DNA of 64,000 nucleotides from an uncultured Verrucomicrobiae bacterium. GTDB taxonomy: Bacteria; Verrucomicrobiota; Verrucomicrobiia; Chthoniobacterales; JAFAMB01. The notes beneath the pieces are model-generated. The model was not told where the DNA came from and did not search any database. It saw only the letters and a list, made by a program, of their open reading frames with translations. Location: contig CAWEXO010000015.1 of assembly GCA_963813025.1 (NCBI GenBank), positions 64,001-128,000 of the forward strand, in the 5' to 3' direction. Shown here one piece after another: positions 57,072-63,741 of this stretch. Positions within the stretch are counted from its first letter, which is position 1. The number at the start of each line of letters is the position of its first letter. Made by a program: the position numbers and the translations under genes.

Positions 57072-59261
57072 CTACGCTGGCTGGTGGACTCGCGGGACGG
57101 CATCTCTCATCTTGCCAACCGCTTTCGCCACGACCGGTTGTGTTTCAACCTGGGTTCGCTTCTTTTTGCCGGCTTCTTCCAAAAACGTCGCTTGTGCGTC
57201 GACTCGCTCGCCTTCGATCGGCAATCGCGCATAAGTCGGTTCGGAACTTTGTTGACGTCCTTTCACATTATCCCGCCAGTAAATTTCGAGAATGCGAGCG
57301 ACCTCGTTCCGCAGGTCCGGGTGTTCAATGGGAAAGCAAGACTCAACGCGCCGAAAGAAGTTGCGCGGCATCCAATCCGCCGAGGCCAGATAAGTTTCCG
57401 GGCTGCCGTCGTTTTCAAAACAAAAGACCCGGCTATGCTCGAGAAATCGGCCAACAATACTGCGGACAGCAATATTCTCGCTGATCCCCGGGATACCCGA
57501 TCGGAGACAGCAGATCCCTCGCACGAGCAATCGAATTTTTACCCCAGCCTGAGATGCCCGGTAAAGCGCATGGATCGTGTCGGTGTCCACCAATGCATTG
57601 AGCTTCACGAAAATTCCCGCTGGCCTCCCCGCTGCCGCATGTTCGGTCTCGCGCTCGATCATTTCGAGGACAAAATCGTGCAAAACCTTCGGCGCTGCCT
57701 TCATCTTGCGGAGGTCCGGGAACACCGAGACACCCGTCAGCCAATTGAACAGTTCTGCGCAATCATTGGTCAGAATGGGATCACAGGTGAGCAGGCTGAG
57801 GTCAGTGTAGAGGCGAGCGGTTGAGGGATGATAGTTGCCCGTTCCCAAATGGAGGTACCGCCTGATAGCGTCCTCCTCCTTGCGCACCACCAAAGTGAGT
57901 TTGGCGTGCGTCTTCAAACCCACGATGCCGTACACCACGTGAACGCCGGCTTCCTGCAAGGTGCGAGACCACTTGATGTTCGCTGCCTCGTCGAAGCGCG
58001 CTTTCAGTTCCATGACCACCGTCACCTGTTTCCCGCTCTCCGCCGCCTCGGCCAGAGAGGCGATAATCGGCGAGTCCCCACTGGTACGATAGAGCGTCTG
58101 TTTGATTGCCAGCACGTTCGGGTCTTCGGCCGCCTGCTCCACAAAGTCGAGCACCGTCTGGAAGCTGTCGTAGGGATGATGCAGCAGAATGGGACGTCGC
58201 CGGATCTGGGTGAAAATGTCCTCGTGATCCGCGGAAGGCGTGACCACGTTGGGAACAAACGGTTTGAACTTCAGATCGGGACGATCGACCTCTGCGATCA
58301 CCGGCATCAACCGAAGAAAGTTGATCGGACCATTTACCACATACAGATCGTCTGGAATCAATCCAAAGGTCTGGAGCAGCTGTGTGGAAATATGCGGCGG
58401 ACAATCGGATTGCACCTCCAGGCGAACGGCTGCCCCGCGGTTTCGCTTTCGCAGCTCCAGCTCGATTGCCTTCAGCAGATTGTCCGATTCTTCCTCGTCG
58501 AGATACAGGTCGCTGTTTCGCGTAACCCGGAATTGATAAGCGCCCTTGACGGTGATCCCATGAAAAAGAGAGCCCACATGTGCCTGGATCAGATTGCCGA
58601 TAAAGATGTAACGATACATCCCATTCTGGCCGGCTTTGTAGGGGAGCAACCGAGGTAAAATGCGCGGCACCTGAACCACGGCTAGGCTGGTGCTTAAATC
58701 CTTGCCAGCCAACTCCACGGCAACATTCAAGCTCTTATTCAGGAGTTGAGGAAAAGGGTGAACCGGATCAACTGCCAAAGGGGTCAGGACCGGGTAGACC
58801 GACTGATCGTAGTACTTCGAATAGTATTGCTTCTCTTCTTTGCTCAACTCGTCATACCGAAGAAAAAAAATGTTCTGTTCTTCCAGCGCGGGCACCAAGC
58901 CGTCGCTCCACAGGCGATATTGGTCGTCCAGCATGCGCCGAGCGCGCTCCGAAACAGCCGCGAGTTGCTCGCTTGGACTCATCCCATCCGGGCCGGTATC
59001 GCTCAGGTTACTTTCGCGCTGCTGTTTCAGACCGGCGACCCTGACCTCAAAAAACTCGTCGAGATTCGAGCTGACGATACAAAGGAACTTCACTCGTTCG
59101 AGCAGCGGGTTGGTCGGATCATAGCCTTCCTCCAGCACTCGCTGGTTAAACTCGAGCCAGCTCAACTCGCGATTAACGTAGAGAGATCGGTCATTGAAAG
59201 CATCGGCCTTCTGCATAGATCCTTTCCTGGAAACAAATCGCTTGACTCTCTGCCTGGGCAT
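57072..59261 (-). CDS. ppk1: Polyphosphate kinase 1 (alternative start 59216)
   Basis: NRELSWLEFNQRVL, LKARFDE, KTHAK and GRFLEHSR. Confidence 0.97.
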   Translation of the reverse strand: MPRQRVKRFVSRKGSMQKADAFNDRSLYVNRELSWLEFNQRVLEEGYDPTNPLLERVKFLCIVSSNLDEFFEVRVAGLKQQRESNLSDTGPDGMSPSEQLAAVSERARRMLDDQYRLWSDGLVPALEEQNIFFLRYDELSKEEKQYYSKYYDQSVYPVLTPLAVDPVHPFPQLLNKSLNVAVELAGKDLSTSLAVVQVPRILPRLLPYKAGQNGMYRYIFIGNLIQAHVGSLFHGITVKGAYQFRVTRNSDLYLDEEESDNLLKAIELELRKRNRGAAVRLEVQSDCPPHISTQLLQTFGLIPDDLYVVNGPINFLRLMPVIAEVDRPDLKFKPFVPNVVTPSADHEDIFTQIRRRPILLHHPYDSFQTVLDFVEQAAEDPNVLAIKQTLYRTSGDSPIIASLAEAAESGKQVTVVMELKARFDEAANIKWSRTLQEAGVHVVYGIVGLKTHAKLTLVVRKEEDAIRRYLHLGTGNYHPSTARLYTDLSLLTCDPILTNDCAELFNWLTGVSVFPDLRKMKAAPKVLHDFVLEMIERETEHAAAGRPAGIFVKLNALVDTDTIHALYRASQAGVKIRLLVRGICCLRSGIPGISENIAVRSIVGRFLEHSRVFCFENDGSPETYLASADWMPRNFFRRVESCFPIEHPDLRNEVARILEIYWRDNVKGRQQSSEPTYARLPIEGERVDAQATFLEEAGKKKRTQVETQPVVAKAVGKMRDAVPRVHQPA

Positions 59262-59297
59262 CCTCTCCTCCACTCTCACGGCGCGCCACTGACCTTT

Positions 59298-59316: not shown

Positions 59317-59639
59317 TATCGTTATCTCAAGCCCGGTCGACGAATAAAATCGCCATCTTTTCGCCAGCAAAGTCCACCACCTCGCGGGTACTTCCTTCTA
59401 ATTTGATGTTTTGCGGCGAAGATAGGTCAGGAAGTAAGCTAGAGACTGCCTCAACGCGTCTTCGGACCTGCAGAGGTCTTTGCGTAGCGTGCCGGTTCTC
59501 AATTCAGACAGGCTGGAAGCGCCTGTCGGACTTTGGGCAATCTGTGCACGCGCAATCGAGCTATGGTTCGGAAGAGAGATCGAGGATGTCCCAAGCCGTC
59601 TCTGCCCCTGCGCCGGTAGATACGGTCTTGAATGTCAAG

Positions 59640-60332
59640 TCATTTGAGGATGGCAGCCAAGCGGGGATTGTAGGGTTGTTGGTGGCGAAGAACGCCGAAA
59701 ACAATGTGGAGGAGTTTGCGCATGATCGCGCCACGGATGGCCAGGGAGTGTAGTTTGCGCGACTCAAGCTCTGCAGCCCATTGTCGGATGGGTTTGCACC
59801 AACGACGGGCCACGGCGGCAGGCAGATAGAGGGCTTTACGCAGGAAGGCGTCGCCGATTTTGCACAGCACGGTTTTGCCGTAGCGCGAGAAACCCGAGCG
59901 GCATTCGGCGGGAGTGAGTCCGGCATAAGCGGCCAGTTGGCGAGCCGATTGGAACTCTTTACCGGCCAATTCGGCCAGCAACTTGGCGGCGGTAAGCTGG
60001 GCAATACCGGGAATGGAGCACAGCAGCTTGCTTTGGCGGCTTAAAGACTCATCGGCGGCGATCAGCTCCAAGAAGACTGACTCGATGACCGCAACGCCTG
60101 CCTGGTGCAGGGCGGCGACCAACTGCTTGCCGTAGACGCCAGTGGCTTCCAAGGCGAAGTGGATTTGGCGGAGCGGCCAACCGCGGGCTTGGAGTTGGGC
60201 TAAAAATGCTCCGATGCCCGCCGCATCATTGCTGAACTTCCCCCGCCAGAGGCTGGTGCCGGTTTTGGAAAGCGCGCAAAAGTCAAAGGTTGCTTTTGCC
60301 AGGTCAATACCGATGCAGTAAGGTTTTTTCAT
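59640..60332 (-). pseudogene. IS110 recombinase with an in-frame internal deletion (230 aa)
   Basis: IGIDLAK, LEATGVY, SIPGI and YAGLTP...SG are present. The KTD..D segment and most of the coiled coil are missing. Confidence 0.88.
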
Positions 60333-60399
60333 CAGACAGGAATTCGCGTTGAATTGGTTCTTTGTTTGATGAAGCGCTTGGGCGCGCACCTTTCCGACA

Positions 60400-60600
60400 G
60401 AGCCTTGTCCACACAGGCTCATGTTCCAACCCTGTTTGGAACGGCCTAAGATACGGTTCGGTCTTTTGCAAGGTGCGGCACGAGGAGGGTGGACTAATCT
60501 ACCGGACAGGTTCTACCGACCTTTGGGCGAAGCAGTTTTCCACCCCCCTCGGCCAAGTTCTTCACCTCCAGAGTTCCGCCCTTGCGGGCGGCTTTAAAAG
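60400..60600 (-). ncRNA. Putative IS110 bridge RNA
   Basis: 5' hairpin CCGCCC-GCAA-GGGCGG; target loop closed by GAGGGGGGTGGA/TCCACCCTCCTC; guide segments match the REP target and the donor junction. Confidence 0.78.
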
Positions 60601-60627
60601 GGAAAAAAGTTGGTGGGGCAAGGTACA

Positions 60628-60724
60628 AGGGCGAGAATTTATTTGAGCCGTCTTGGGAGGTGGCAACCTCTCCGTCCGGCTCAAATAAATTCTCGCCCTA
60701 CCGCCACCAGGGCTCGCCCTACCG
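60628..60724. repeat. REPIN downstream of the RAYT gene (left REP interrupted by IS110)
   Basis: AGGGCGAGAATTTATTTGAGCCG...CGGCTCAAATAAATTCTCGCCCTACCG, plus a partial GGCTCGCCCTACCG. Confidence 0.88.
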
Positions 60725-60760: not shown

Positions 60761-61225
60761 TCACCACCAATCAGCAAATCGGGTCATCTCACCTTGGAAT
60801 CGCCAGCGCGCTGGCTCGTCCGTCAAGCCCGCCCTAATCGGATTCATGAGTATATACCGGTACCTTGCTTCAGCGCTGTCGTGGGCGCGAATCCGATGAT
60901 GGAATGACCCGGACTGCCATCTGCAGCCTGGCTGATCGAATCGTAGTGAGATCCGCGATTTCCAAATCTTGATCCAAAGATCCAGTCCGGCTTGGCCTGA
61001 GCCCGGCCAAGCAAAGAAATGCAGGTGATCAGGCATGATCATGTAGCGCCCGACGTGCCAGTCCGTTGCTTCTCCCCACGCTGCAACGAGCAATGTCTGT
61101 ACCGTATCGTTAGCCAGCCATCTGATTCGCTTTCGGGTGCACACGGTGACAAGCACCAAAGTGGGCTGTTCGTCGATAAAAAGAACACCTTTTGCCGGGT
61201 ACTTCCGCTGTGGTCGGTAGTACAT
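60761..61225 (-). CDS. REP-associated tyrosine transposase (RAYT, Y1 HUH)
   Basis: VTVCT, IMPDHLH (HUH), WQSGSFHHRIR and YILMNPIRAGL; flanked by REPs. Confidence 0.92.
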   Translation of the reverse strand: MYYRPQRKYPAKGVLFIDEQPTLVLVTVCTRKRIRWLANDTVQTLLVAAWGEATDWHVGRYMIMPDHLHFFAWPGSGQAGLDLWIKIWKSRISLRFDQPGCRWQSGSFHHRIRAHDSAEARYRYILMNPIRAGLTDEPARWRFQGEMTRFADWW

Positions 61226-61298
61226 AAAACAGAATTACTAGTTGTGTTTTAACCCGACAATTTAAAAATACTCTTAATGTTGAGCTCTGGCCCTGCGC

Positions 61299-61355
61299 CG
61301 GTAGGGCGAGAATTTATTCGAGCCGGACGAGAGGTTGCCACATCCCAAAGACGGC
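61299..61355 (+). repeat. REP plus spacer upstream of the RAYT gene
   Basis: CGGTAGGGCGAGAATTTATTCGAGCCG; the spacer closely matches the reverse complement of 60647-60677. Confidence 0.88.
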
Positions 61356-61493: not shown

Positions 61494-62180
61494 TCAGTTG
61501 CGTCGGCCGCCGAGTAACGGAAGCAGGTAAAACAGCAGAAAGCTGAACGAAGTCACAAAAGCGGCTACGTAAGTCAAAGCAGCCGCATCGAGCACCCGGT
61601 TCACGGCCGTAACTTCGGCGGGTCCCCTGATAAGACCCATCTGCGCCAGGATCCGTTTGGCCCGAGCGCTCGCGTCGAACTCCACTGGCAGCGTGATCAG
61701 ATTGAATAGCATGATAATTCCCCAGCCCAGGCAAAGAATGATCAGCATCGGGCGGAGCAAACCGGTCAAGAGCCCAAAAAGCGGCAGAATGCCAACCGAC
61801 ATGTTCGCAAACCCGACCAAGCCAGTAGCGGCCATCCGCCAGTTCAGCGGTGCGTAAGCCATTTTGTGCTGGACAGCGTGACCGCACTCGTGTGCGGCGA
61901 TCCCCACAGCGGCGGTCGACGTGCCGTTGAAGTTGTCCGGCGAGAGCACCAAACGTTTATGAATCGGATCGTAATGATCGCCTAAGGGCTGATTGCCTTC
62001 GTAGATCTGGACATCATAAATGCCAGAGGCCGTTAAAATTTGTTGGGCGGTTTCGGCTCCCGTCAATCCAGACGATGCCGGGACCTGGCTGTACTTCGCG
62101 TACGCGGCCTTCACTCTCCCTGTCGCCCAGAGGGACAAGGCCAGTGTGCCGAAGAATACAAGAAAGCTGAAAGATGTCAT
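61494..62180 (-). CDS. Zinc metallopeptidase (YugP-like)
   Basis: DHYDP, AAHECGHAVQH, TLPVEFDASARA and AAALTYVA. Confidence 0.92.
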   Translation of the reverse strand: MTSFSFLVFFGTLALSLWATGRVKAAYAKYSQVPASSGLTGAETAQQILTASGIYDVQIYEGNQPLGDHYDPIHKRLVLSPDNFNGTSTAAVGIAAHECGHAVQHKMAYAPLNWRMAATGLVGFANMSVGILPLFGLLTGLLRPMLIILCLGWGIIMLFNLITLPVEFDASARAKRILAQMGLIRGPAEVTAVNRVLDAAALTYVAAFVTSFSFLLFYLLPLLGGRRN

Positions 62181-62298
62181 TGTACGAAGATACGCTTGTT
62201 CTGAGCGGACATCAAAAACCGGTACTCACTAAGGCCGGCGGAGTCTGGCGTCAATTTTGCTTTTCCTGCCCCGGCGACTGGATACTTTTCTACAGTCT

Positions 62299-63741
62299 AT
62301 GCGTGATTTGTTCGGCGGATACGACCCGGAGACCTATTTTGACGAGATGTTTGAGTCTGCCGGTCAGGTTCGCCCGCATTATCGCCGGCTGTTTCAGCGT
62401 TACCGGGAGATGACCCGCGAAGAGTTCGACCGCAAACGCAGCGTCGCCGATACGTCATTTCTTACCCAGGGGATCACCTTCACCGTCTACAACGCCGACG
62501 AAGGTACCGAAAGAATCTTTCCCTTTGATTTGGTCCCCAGGATCATTCCCGCCGCCGAGTGGCAGTACATCGAGAAGGGTCTTACTCAGCGCATTACCGC
62601 GCTCAACCTCTTCCTGCACGACATTTACCACGATCAGAAGATCATCAAAGACGGCGTGATCCCAGCCGACATCATCAAAAGCGCCGTTCATTTCCGGCCT
62701 GAGTTCATGGGATTTAATGTGCCCCGTGACATTTACATTCACATCTGCGGTACGGATCTGATCCGCGATAGTTCGGGGGCGTACCTGGTGCTGGAGGACA
62801 ACGCTCGATGCCCTTCCGGAGTGTCTTATCTGCTCGAGAACCGGCAGGCGATGAAGCGGGTGTTTCCGAACCTGTTCGGCAAATATGCTGTGCGGCCGGT
62901 TGACACTTACTGCCAGGAGCTGCTCGGAGTGTTGCGCTGGATTTCGCCACGAAATGAAGCCGATCCAACGGTCGTTTTGCTTAGCCCGGGAATATACAAT
63001 TCAGCCTATTTCGAGCACTCCTATCTCGCTAAGACCATGGGGATCGACATCGTTGTAGGCGCTGATCTGGTGGTAAAAGACCAGGCGATTTTCATGAAGA
63101 CCACCCACGGATTGCGGCGGGTTGATGTCGTCTACCGAAGAATTGACGATGATTTCCTCGATCCACAGGTCTTTCGACCCGACTCTTTGCTCGGGGTGCC
63201 GGGATTGGTTGATTGCTATCGGCACGGGAATGTCAGCCTAGCCAATAGCATTGGCACGGGAGTCGCTGACGACAAAGTGGTCTACTATTTCGTTCCGCGG
63301 ATGATCCAGTACTACCTGGATCAAGATCCGATCCTGCCCAATGTCGAGACTTATCTTTCCCACTTTGAAAAAGATCGAAACTATATCCTGTCCAATCTGT
63401 CGAAGCTGGTCGTCAAGTCGGCCAATGAAAGCGGTGGCTACGGCATGCTGATGGGTCCGGCATCCACCGAAGAGGAGCGCGAGAAATTCCGCGCTCAGAT
63501 CCTGGCCAATCCCCGGAACTTCGTGGCGCAACATGTGGTGCAACTGTCGCGTTCCCCCTCCTTTTGCGATGGTCATCTCTGCGGCCGCCACATTGACCTC
63601 CGTCCGTACATTCTTTACGGCGAGAAAACCACGATTATTCCCGGAGGCTTGACGCGGGTCGCTCTGCGGGAAGGCTCTCTGGTCGTGAACTCGTCCCAGG
63701 GCGGCGGAAGCAAGGATACCTGGGTACTGAATGATAACTAG
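62299..63741 (+). CDS. Circularly permuted type 2 ATP-grasp protein
   Basis: [22 protein letters not shown] and [15 protein letters not shown]. Confidence 0.93.

What the first reader, a model, noticed from the sequence alone, without database searches (positions are those of the whole stretch)
59618..60629. IS110 bridge-RNA element programmed against the host RAYT REPs and inserted in its own target
Seen in sequence (minus strand): the element is bounded by CT cores at 59618-19 and 60628-29. The empty site reads TCTCGCC-CT-ACCGG, the end of the REP family flanking the adjacent RAYT gene. The circle junction (donor) reads ACCGTAT-CT-TGTAC. The non-coding left end holds two loops. The target loop has CTTCGCCCA (60524-32), resembling the left target, and TGTCCGGTAG (60499-508), the reverse complement of CTACCGG. 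The donor loop has ACCGTATCT (60449-57), identical to the left donor plus core, and GGACAAG (60404-10), complementary to CTTGT. Established knowledge: this is the layout of the IS621 bridge RNA, which targets E. coli REPs; from memory its donor is ACAGTATCTTGTAT. Inference: this is a naturally reprogrammed bridge recombinase, probably verrucomicrobial, that keeps a near-IS621 donor but has a different target guide.
Basis: partly seen in the sequence, partly recalled or inferred. Interest (0 to 1): 0.88.

Follow-up and report, generated by a model that had tools for sequence, protein, structure and literature searches.

The report
Broken RNA-guided jumping gene in repeat
This is a broken copy of an RNA-guided jumping gene whose small guide RNA very probably steers it into the host's commonest short palindromic repeats, a known arrangement seen here in a bacterial group where I found no description of it.

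Summary
Window 59618-60629 (-) is an IS621-like IS110 element with CT cores and four guide segments at the stated places. The bridge RNA is inferred; no RNA data were available. The genome has 14 related places, 7 with intact 336-aa recombinases. All 12 copies with both ends sit in the same REP end, followed by ACCGG, against 96 of 240 empty ends (p about 3e-5), as a 7-nt right guide predicts. Across 19 guide types from this genome and relatives, guides track insertion sites (0 of 20,000 shuffles). A covariance model built from them recovers the IS621 bridge RNA.

Three corrections. This copy has a 306-bp deletion that removes two catalytic aspartates, and probably moved in trans. Lying next to the RAYT gene is not beyond chance (p about 0.1). 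The left guide mismatches target positions 1, 2 and 9.

A second, unrelated IS110 family uses the same REP end 5 bp away. REP targeting by bridge-RNA IS110 elements is in print (IS621, ISPpu9, ISPpu10), and this scan noted similar cases on other DNA. Verdict: a new member of a known kind.

The parts
59618..60629 (-). IS110 element, 1012 bp, internally deleted copy of a family with 7 intact 1324-1325 bp copies elsewhere in the genome
60628..60629 (-). Left CT core
59618..59619 (-). Right CT core
60630..60636 (-). Left target half TCTCGCC (REP end)
   Evidence: same kind of flank in 12 of 12 two-ended copies
59613..59617 (-). Right target half ACCGG
   Evidence: 12 of 12 two-ended copies against 96 of 240 empty REP ends
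60623..60627 (-). Right donor half TGTAC (start of the element's left end)
59620..59626 (-). Left donor half ACCGTAT (end of the element's right end)
59633..59638 (-). -35-like hexamer TTGACA; 17 nt from the -10-like hexamer once the ends are joined in a circle (inferred junction promoter)
   Evidence: no promoter-like site in the linear form
60620..60625 (-). -10-like hexamer TACCTT
60385..60614 (-). Inferred bridge RNA, about 230 nt; ends inferred by analogy to IS621, not mapped
60576..60592 (-). Short GC-rich 5' hairpin
60476..60555 (-). Target-binding stem-loop
   Evidence: consensus fold; pair counts
60524..60532 (-). Left target guide CTTCGCCCA (positions 3-8 match this site; 1, 2 and 9 do not)
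60499..60505 (-). Right target guide CCGGTAG, 7 nt, complementary to core plus ACCGG
60497..60498 (-). Handshake dinucleotide AT, as in IS621; complementary to donor positions 6-7
   Evidence: IS621 numbering from PMC11208158 passages
60389..60473 (-). Donor-binding stem-loop
60449..60457 (-). Left donor guide ACCGTATCT
60404..60412 (-). Right donor guide GTGGACAAG, discontinuous (2 nt, 2-nt bulge, 5 nt)
   Evidence: pairing scheme from PMC11208158 section 8
60402..60403 (-). Handshake dinucleotide GC (G complementary to target position 7)
59640..60332 (-). Recombinase gene, 230 aa; a 306-bp in-frame deletion joined near 60086 removes D104, D107 and most of the coiled coil
60630..60701 (-). 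REPIN (inverted pair of GTAG-type REP arms) whose distal arm is split by the element
60761..61225 (-). RAYT-like tyrosine transposase gene, 154 aa
   Evidence: NF047646 E 8.5e-19, 67.9 bits, below the 80-bit cut-off; no Pfam hit
61298..61311 (-). Empty target site of the same kind in the REP upstream of the RAYT gene

Best explanation
A non-autonomous copy of an IS621-like IS110 insertion sequence. The family works by bridge-RNA-guided recombination. An element is excised or copied out as a circle. The joined ends form a promoter (-35 from the right end, -10 from the left end) that drives an RNA of about 230 nt. The RNA's donor loop reads the circle junction and its target loop reads the CTAC end of the host's GTAG-type REP. 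The DEDD/Ser recombinase exchanges strands at the CT cores. Specificity here comes from target positions 3-8 (left guide) and from a natural 7-nt right guide, which selects the ACCGG subset of REP ends. This copy lost 102 codons of its recombinase but kept its ends and RNA, and was probably moved by recombinase from intact copies. It lies next to the RAYT gene because REPs flank that gene. Shown from sequence: ends, copies, sites, deletion, guide-target covariation. Inferred: RNA expression, circle, promoter, catalysis, trans mobilisation.
For: 12 of 12 two-ended copies lie in the REP end followed by ACCGG, against 96 of 240 empty ends, p 2.7e-5. The unrelated second IS110 family in the same REP end shows ACCGG in 4 of 10, the background rate. 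Guides match observed sites across 19 guide types: left 106 of 133 against 82.8 shuffled, right 89 of 95 against 56.5, 0 of 20,000 shuffles each. Donor changes are compensated: donor position 14 is C with G in the guide here, and T with A in IS621, L016 and L062; position 4 G to C changes with the guide in L033 and L040; position 3 differs from IS621 together with the guide. The IS621-like structure has 13 of 40 pairs with two-sided changes against 4.6 in shuffles. Model R1 hits the IS621 bridge RNA, E about 2e-4. The intact protein keeps all five catalytic positions and is 113 of 324 identical to IS621. The same 306-bp deletion occurs at a different REP site, G000:C9:218159, 99.4% identical. 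Intact copies are 99.1-99.7% alike.
Against: The RNA itself is not shown. The left guide mismatches core position 9 and positions 1-2, although core pairing on both strands was strongly preferred in the IS621 screen (PMC11208160 section 8). No empty site in the genome matches this copy's two guides perfectly. In the single-sequence fold the guides pair partly with each other; forcing them open costs 11.4 kcal/mol, though the same test costs 12.0 for IS621. RNAalifold did not give a clean donor loop, and the tested structure was partly drawn from the same sequences. Plain DNA alignment to the IS621 RNA is not significant (score 71; shuffles 62.8 +/- 6.2). One degraded copy without a right end (C14:421125) has a left flank that does not look like the REP. 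Three guide types carry a mismatch at target position 11, one of them in a copy in this genome. Relatives are kin, so the shuffle tests overstate significance.
Confidence: 0.9

Rival explanations
1. The RNA guides are only part of the specificity: the recombinase also needs a REP-encoded structure (hairpin or REPIN context), as reported for ISPpu10.
For: All 12 two-ended copies sit at REP arm ends, and the left guide is loose at 3 of 9 positions. A target stem-loop requirement is reported for ISPpu10 (10.64898/2026.03.19.712850, abstract and section 7).
Against: Almost all guide-matching sites in this genome are REP ends anyway: 95 copies of the 12-mer against 0.7 expected. Sequence alone therefore explains the pattern. 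Relatives target several unrelated repeat ends, one without GTAG.
Confidence: 0.25
2. The element is functionally tied to the RAYT locus: co-mobilised with it, or tracking the RAYT's REP as a partner.
For: 2 of 3 near-identical RAYT genes in the genome have a family copy in the downstream REP, and a RAYT fragment abuts a copy of the second family. The closest RAYT in another genus is flanked by the same REP.
Against: 2 of 12 copies lie near a RAYT against 10 of 240 empty ends, Fisher p 0.105; both families together give 3 of 22, p 0.085. 0 of 28 RAYT loci of relatives hold an IS110 gene or this RNA within the roughly 1.5 kb fetched on each side, and 0 of 74 element loci hold a RAYT match (many are short contigs). 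The two RAYT-adjacent copies are different subtypes in different REP contexts.
Confidence: 0.07
3. The second copy with the same deletion arose by duplication or gene conversion rather than by transposition in trans; the window copy is an inert relic.
For: Only two copies share this deletion, and one has a further frameshift. The assembly is 80% complete, so an intact copy of this subtype may be missing.
Against: The flanks of the two copies differ outside the target motif, and both junctions are exact. A third copy of the subtype with a larger deletion also has exact ends at its own REP.
Confidence: 0.12
4. The guide-like matches are chance or remnants, and target choice is by protein alone.
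For: Two of the four matches are short and common by chance, 11% and 31%.
Against: Guides and sites covary in relatives only 72-79% identical in protein. The guides occupy the same positions as the IS621 guides.
Confidence: 0.02

Closest known systems
IS621 of E. coli and its bridge RNA (PMC11208160, PMC11208158; PDB 8WT6)
   Same: CT cores; RNA in the left end upstream of the recombinase; order and spacing of four guides and handshake bases; discontinuous right donor guide; DEDD plus Ser; insertion at the CT of the CTAC end of a GTAG-type REP; donor differs at 2 of 14 positions.
   Different: 35% protein identity; different left target; natural 7-nt right target guide where IS621 is credited with 4 nt; left guide does not pair core position 9; separate clade of verrucomicrobial elements; this copy is deleted.
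ISCro4 / IS622 (10.1101/2025.05.14.653916; PDB 9T56)
   Same: Second-best solved relative, E 5.5e-44; same 14-bp target and donor model (passages).
   Different: 88% identical to IS621 by that paper, so equally distant from this element; activity here is untested.
ISPpu9 and ISPpu10 of Pseudomonas putida (PMC1525189, PMC12288879, 10.64898/2026.03.19.712850)
   Same: All copies in REPs; two dissimilar IS110 elements share one REP family; transposase-free modules are proposed to move in trans (passages).
   Different: Those two insert at the same base; here the two families insert 5 bp apart. The derivatives here keep the bridge RNA and part of the gene.
RAYT and GTAG-type REP/REPIN systems (PMC2817692, PMC3733652)
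   Same: RAYT-like gene flanked by inverted GTAG repeats; GTAG repeats are reported in a verrucomicrobium, O. terrae (passages).
   Different: Score is below the NCBIfam cut-off; three near-identical copies in one genome, whereas RAYTs are described as typically single-copy (10.1101/119735, abstract start).

Membership tests
IS110 family, IS110 (IS621-like) group | N-terminal DEDD domain (PF01548) and C-terminal Ser domain (PF02371) | tested here: met
   Both hit the window protein, E 2.3e-13 and 8.2e-21; NF033542 137.9 bits against cut-off 140 for the deleted protein.
IS110 family, IS110 (IS621-like) group | Catalytic D11/E60/D102/D105/S241 equivalents, in intact family copies | tested here: met
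   D10, E62, D104, D107, S248 in the 336-aa copy.
Active (autonomous) IS110 element | All catalytic residues present in this copy | tested here: not met
   D104 and D107 are deleted; mutation of the IS621 equivalents abolished recombination (PMC11208158 passage).
IS110 family, IS110 (IS621-like) group | Short core (CT) at both ends, long non-coding left end | tested here: met
   12 of 12 two-ended copies; about 295 nt before the start codon.
IS621-type bridge RNA | Two stem-loops with guides in internal loops | tested here: met
   Target guides unpaired in the consensus fold of 26 sequences; IS621-like structure 93.5% paired, 13 of 40 pairs with two-sided change. The single-sequence fold and the unconstrained donor loop are less clean.
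IS621-type bridge RNA | Guides covary with target and donor | tested here: met
IS621-type bridge RNA | Structural homology to the IS621 RNA | tested here: met
   Model R1, built without IS621, hits it at 20.6 bits, E about 2e-4, rough calibration. A published IS621 model was not available; Rfam gave only a chance-level hit.
IS621-type bridge RNA | Left target guide pairs both core bases | tested here: not met
   Position 9 is A, not T, in all 13 copies with a left guide in this genome; it is T in only 3 of 19 guide types. A variant feature; core T9 is also read by the protein.
IS621-type bridge RNA | Promoter formed at the circle junction | tested here: inconclusive
   Consensus-like hexamers 17 nt apart across the joined ends; function not tested.
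IS621-type bridge RNA | RNA expressed, bound by the recombinase, directs recombination | not testable with these tools
   Needs RNA-seq and recombination assays.
RAYT (neighbouring gene) | Match to the REP-associated tyrosine transposase model and flanking inverted GTAG REPs | tested here: inconclusive
   E 8.5e-19 but 67.9 bits against cut-off 80; REPs on both sides, and the same REP around the closest relative.

The most novel reading that the evidence does not exclude
The verrucomicrobial clade is a natural variant of the bridge system in which target reading has shifted rightward: a full 7-nt right guide, no RNA pairing at core position 9, loose positions 1-2 and a one-base register shift in some members. 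It retargets quickly between repeat families. The deleted copies form a non-autonomous, guide-carrying lineage that supplies a second guide in trans to intact recombinase, one better matched to the commonest REP variant, while an unrelated IS110 family competes for the same REP end. That would be a natural split bridge system with in-genome guide diversification and different core rules from IS621.
Probability: 0.15. Interest if true: 0.55.

Novelty: new member of a known kind. Interest (0 to 1): 0.3.

Why it matters
It extends REP-targeting bridge recombinases to a verrucomicrobial clade not found in my literature searches. It gives a clean natural test of an engineering result: the 7-nt right guide picks the ACCGG subset of REP ends 12 times out of 12. 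Seven intact, 99%-identical copies are candidates for an orthologue at 35% identity to IS621, with a possibly different core rule. The mechanism and the REP preference are already known, so this adds breadth rather than a new principle.

Tried and rejected
RAYT-specific association: not significant in the genome and not seen in relatives. Matching of guide subtype to REP variant: rejected. Copies with the CC-starting guide sit at both TCTCGCC and TTTCGCC, and so do copies with the CT-starting guide. A rule that exactly one of the two left guides pairs core position 9: suggested by close relatives and IS621, dropped because distant relatives and L040, L044 break it. Right-guide pairing beyond position 14: flanks vary there. 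Rfam: one chance-level hit on the REP hairpin. Promoter scan of the linear locus: none. Sequencing runs: none was listed, which is no evidence either way. DNA search of E. coli genomes with the intact element: no match. Two plasmid hits fetched as possible IS621 were other IS110 elements. A faulty pattern gave an empty table, redone, where the left donor guide of the nine copies of the intact subtype was mis-anchored on a nearby near-repeat; the alignment shows the true guide. No structure prediction or protein-database search was run; family and solved-structure hits were sufficient. Host marker genes were not classified.

Full report
Observation. The minus strand of 59618-60629 is a 1012-bp element bounded by CT dinucleotides. 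In 20,000 Markov resamples of the 295-nt left end, the left-donor 9-mer arose in 0.015%, the right-target 7-mer in 1.2%, the left-target 6-mer in 11% and the right-donor 5-mer in 31%; all four together never. The ORF hits PF01548 and PF02371 and NF033542 just under its cut-off.

The family in this genome. The assembly is 4.42 Mb and 80% complete. BLAST and an RNA model each find 14 related places. Seven copies have a 336-aa recombinase and are 99.1-99.7% alike. The others are one 309-aa copy, one interrupted by another element, the window copy, a 99.4% identical twin at C9:218159, a 632-bp copy, a degraded copy without a right end (C14:421125) and an RNA-only fragment (C4). The window copy belongs to a second subtype: 193 of 230 residues are identical to the intact type, with 65 synonymous and 37 non-synonymous codon differences. 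It lacks 306 bp in frame, including D104 and D107, the equivalents of IS621 D102 and D105. Mutating those abolished IS621 recombination (PMC11208158, passage), so this protein is inferred to be inactive. The twin has the same deletion at another REP with different flanks, which points to movement in trans after the deletion (inference).

Target. All 12 copies with both ends lie in the CTAC end of a GTAG-type REP. Left flanks are TCTCGCC (5), TTTCGCC (5), TTTCGCT (1) and GTTCGCC (1); the right flank is ACCGG in all 12. Of 302 pattern matches in the genome, 240 passed a REP-arm filter, and 96 of these end in ACCGG, so 12 of 12 has p 2.7e-5. A second, unrelated IS110 family (424 aa from the first ATG, 24% identity over part of the length) has 10 complete copies in the same REP end, 5 bp upstream; one further row without a located right end was dropped. 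Only 4 of those 10 are followed by ACCGG, the background rate. This internal control ties the ACCGG preference to the 7-nt right guide. Longer natural right guides, and better specificity with 7 nt, are described for IS110 elements (PMC11208160, passages). The copy at C14:421125 is the one place whose left flank does not look like the REP.

Relatives. Searches returned 22 loci from genomes and 52 from metagenomes. Named close hits (46-77% identity) are Verrucomicrobiota MAGs. In a sample of 150 other genomes of the host's order, 3 had a match at E 1e-40, all in the host's family. In a tree of 38 proteins, 26 rows including both subtypes form a clade at 100/99, apart from IS621 (midpoint root, long-branch warnings). 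Of 88 elements and loci examined (13 own, 75 fetched), 46 had both junctions and both target guides. L046 was dropped by hand because its left-end call looked spurious, and L044 and L045 because their right core reads CG. The 46 collapse to 19 guide types, 4 of them from this genome. Left guides match 106 of 133 target bases (best of two registers, also allowed in the null) against 82.8 +/- 4.2 shuffled. Right guides match 89 of 95 against 56.5 +/- 3.9. No shuffle of 20,000 reached either value. Kinship inflates these tests, but the guides follow quite different sites such as TTGTG, TCGGG, CCGGG and ACAAG. Donor changes are also compensated, at positions 3, 4 and 14; L049 and L057 carry a wobble-type exception. 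The targets are host repeats. G047, which holds 75%-identical copies, has 137 copies of the REP-end motif against 7 of the control. G035 has 2 against 12, but has 16 copies of another motif (0 control); that motif is the target of the L016 group, whose donor loop a G035 locus shares.

RNA. The left end folds with z -2.78. The consensus fold of 26 sequences leaves both target guides in an internal loop but gives small helices inside the donor guides. An IS621-like structure that I wrote on the alignment is 93.5% paired, with 13 of 40 pairs changed on both sides against 4.6 in shuffles and at most 4 in slid controls; it was partly derived from these sequences. In the single-sequence fold the guides are partly paired; opening them costs 11.4 kcal/mol, and 12.0 for IS621. 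IS621 copies from E. coli HS reproduce the published guide numbering. Model R1, built without them, finds the IS621 RNA at E about 2e-4, although plain DNA alignment is not significant. Joining the ends places TTGACA 17 nt from TACCTT. One departure: left-guide position 9 is T in only 3 of 19 guide types, whereas core pairing on both strands was strongly preferred in the IS621 screen (PMC11208160 section 8). Core T9 is also read by the protein (PMC11208158 section 8), which may explain the tolerance (inference).

The RAYT neighbour. The gene at 60761-61225 matches the RAYT model below cut-off, has REPs on both sides, and its closest relative in another genus is flanked by the same REP. So 'RAYT REPs' is reasonable. 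The adjacency is not special: 2 of 12 copies against 10 of 240 empty ends lie within 600 bp of a close RAYT (p 0.105). 0 of 28 RAYT loci of relatives hold an IS110, and 0 of 74 element loci hold a RAYT match, within the flanks fetched.

Mechanism. Best explanation (0.9): bridge-RNA-guided insertion into REP ends as for IS621, with this copy moved in trans. Low-level read-through expression and excision from linear IS621 are described (PMC13626964, passages); a copy-out route is proposed in a preprint (10.64898/2026.08.31.748434, abstract and section 8). An added requirement for REP structure is compatible and untested (0.25). A functional RAYT link is unlikely (0.07).

Literature. IS621 inserts mostly in REPs, and natural orthologues have guides concordant with their targets (PMC11208160, passages and section 8). 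ISPpu9 and ISPpu10 share one REP and insertion point (PMC1525189, passages). Transposase-free ISPpu9 modules may move in trans (PMC12288879, passages). ISPpu10 needs a target stem-loop (10.64898/2026.03.19.712850, abstract and section 7). GTAG repeats occur in Verrucomicrobia (PMC3733652, passages). Also seen as passages only: PMC2817692, 10.1101/119735, 10.1101/2025.05.14.653916. A search for IS110, bridge RNA and Verrucomicrobi found 0 papers; REPIN, Verrucomicrobi and RAYT found 1; RAYT and IS110 found 16, most seen as a listing only. No supplements were read; the orthologue tables of the bridge-RNA papers may already hold this clade. Notes of this scan describe like arrangements in this and other genomes; they are unchecked leads.

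Verdict. Real and well supported. A new member of a known kind, interest 0.3.

Noticed in passing
G000:C4:2772, C8:159951, C11:77978, C11:84531, C13:92656, C13:131625, C14:436339, C16:85354, C1:108864, C5:143356: A second, unrelated IS110 family (10 complete copies, about 1686 bp) inserts in the same REP end 5 bp upstream of this family's core; its two junctions seem to share only one base. Two of these copies, and a truncated one at C1:207999, carry a 13-bp tandem duplication of the left end.
   Followed up: partly
L003:553-729 (G000:C4:5752-5928, -): RNA-only relic: a REP-internal CTTCGCC is fused to the CTTCGCC that encodes the left guide, removing the 5' strand of the target stem. It could be a microhomology deletion or a half-match event.
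   Followed up: partly
window 60761-61225; G000:C14:454612-455073; C11:605010-605458; C11:78014-78177: Three near-identical RAYT-like genes (100, 95 and 93%; the third frameshifted) plus a fragment in one genome, although RAYTs are usually single-copy.
   Followed up: partly
G000:C9:218159; L003; L006; L037: The same G-to-C change in the right target guide (mismatch at target position 11) occurs in this genome and in two groups of relatives.
   Followed up: no
L028, L030, L033, L035, L054: In these relatives the left guide pairs in a register shifted by one base relative to the conserved flanking anchors; one insertion (L012) has an extra C at the left junction.
   Followed up: partly
G000:C2:76040, C9:94115, C11:437512 and others: A third multi-copy IS110 family (467-aa frame, 12 matches) inserts at short TAG-containing sites, only sometimes in REPs.
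   Followed up: no
L004 (G000:C9:67089-69147): A family copy is interrupted by an element whose 345-aa frame looks like an IS3-type DDE transposase (by eye, not scanned).
   Followed up: no
L015-L024: A relative at 49% identity targets a repeat without GTAG (site TCTGCGC, core, TTGTG), with matching guides.
   Followed up: partly
L082 and L149: In a relative, a REP arm replaces the target loop of the RNA while the donor loop and gene start remain, like the C4 relic.
   Followed up: no
L131: A RAYT gene in G047 is followed by a long tandem array of about 14 REP-like units of 26 bp.
   Followed up: no
window 57072-59279 (-), 61494-62180 (-), 62257-63741 (+): Neighbouring genes are ordinary: polyphosphate kinase, a putative zinc metallopeptidase and a circularly permuted ATP-grasp protein.
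   Followed up: no
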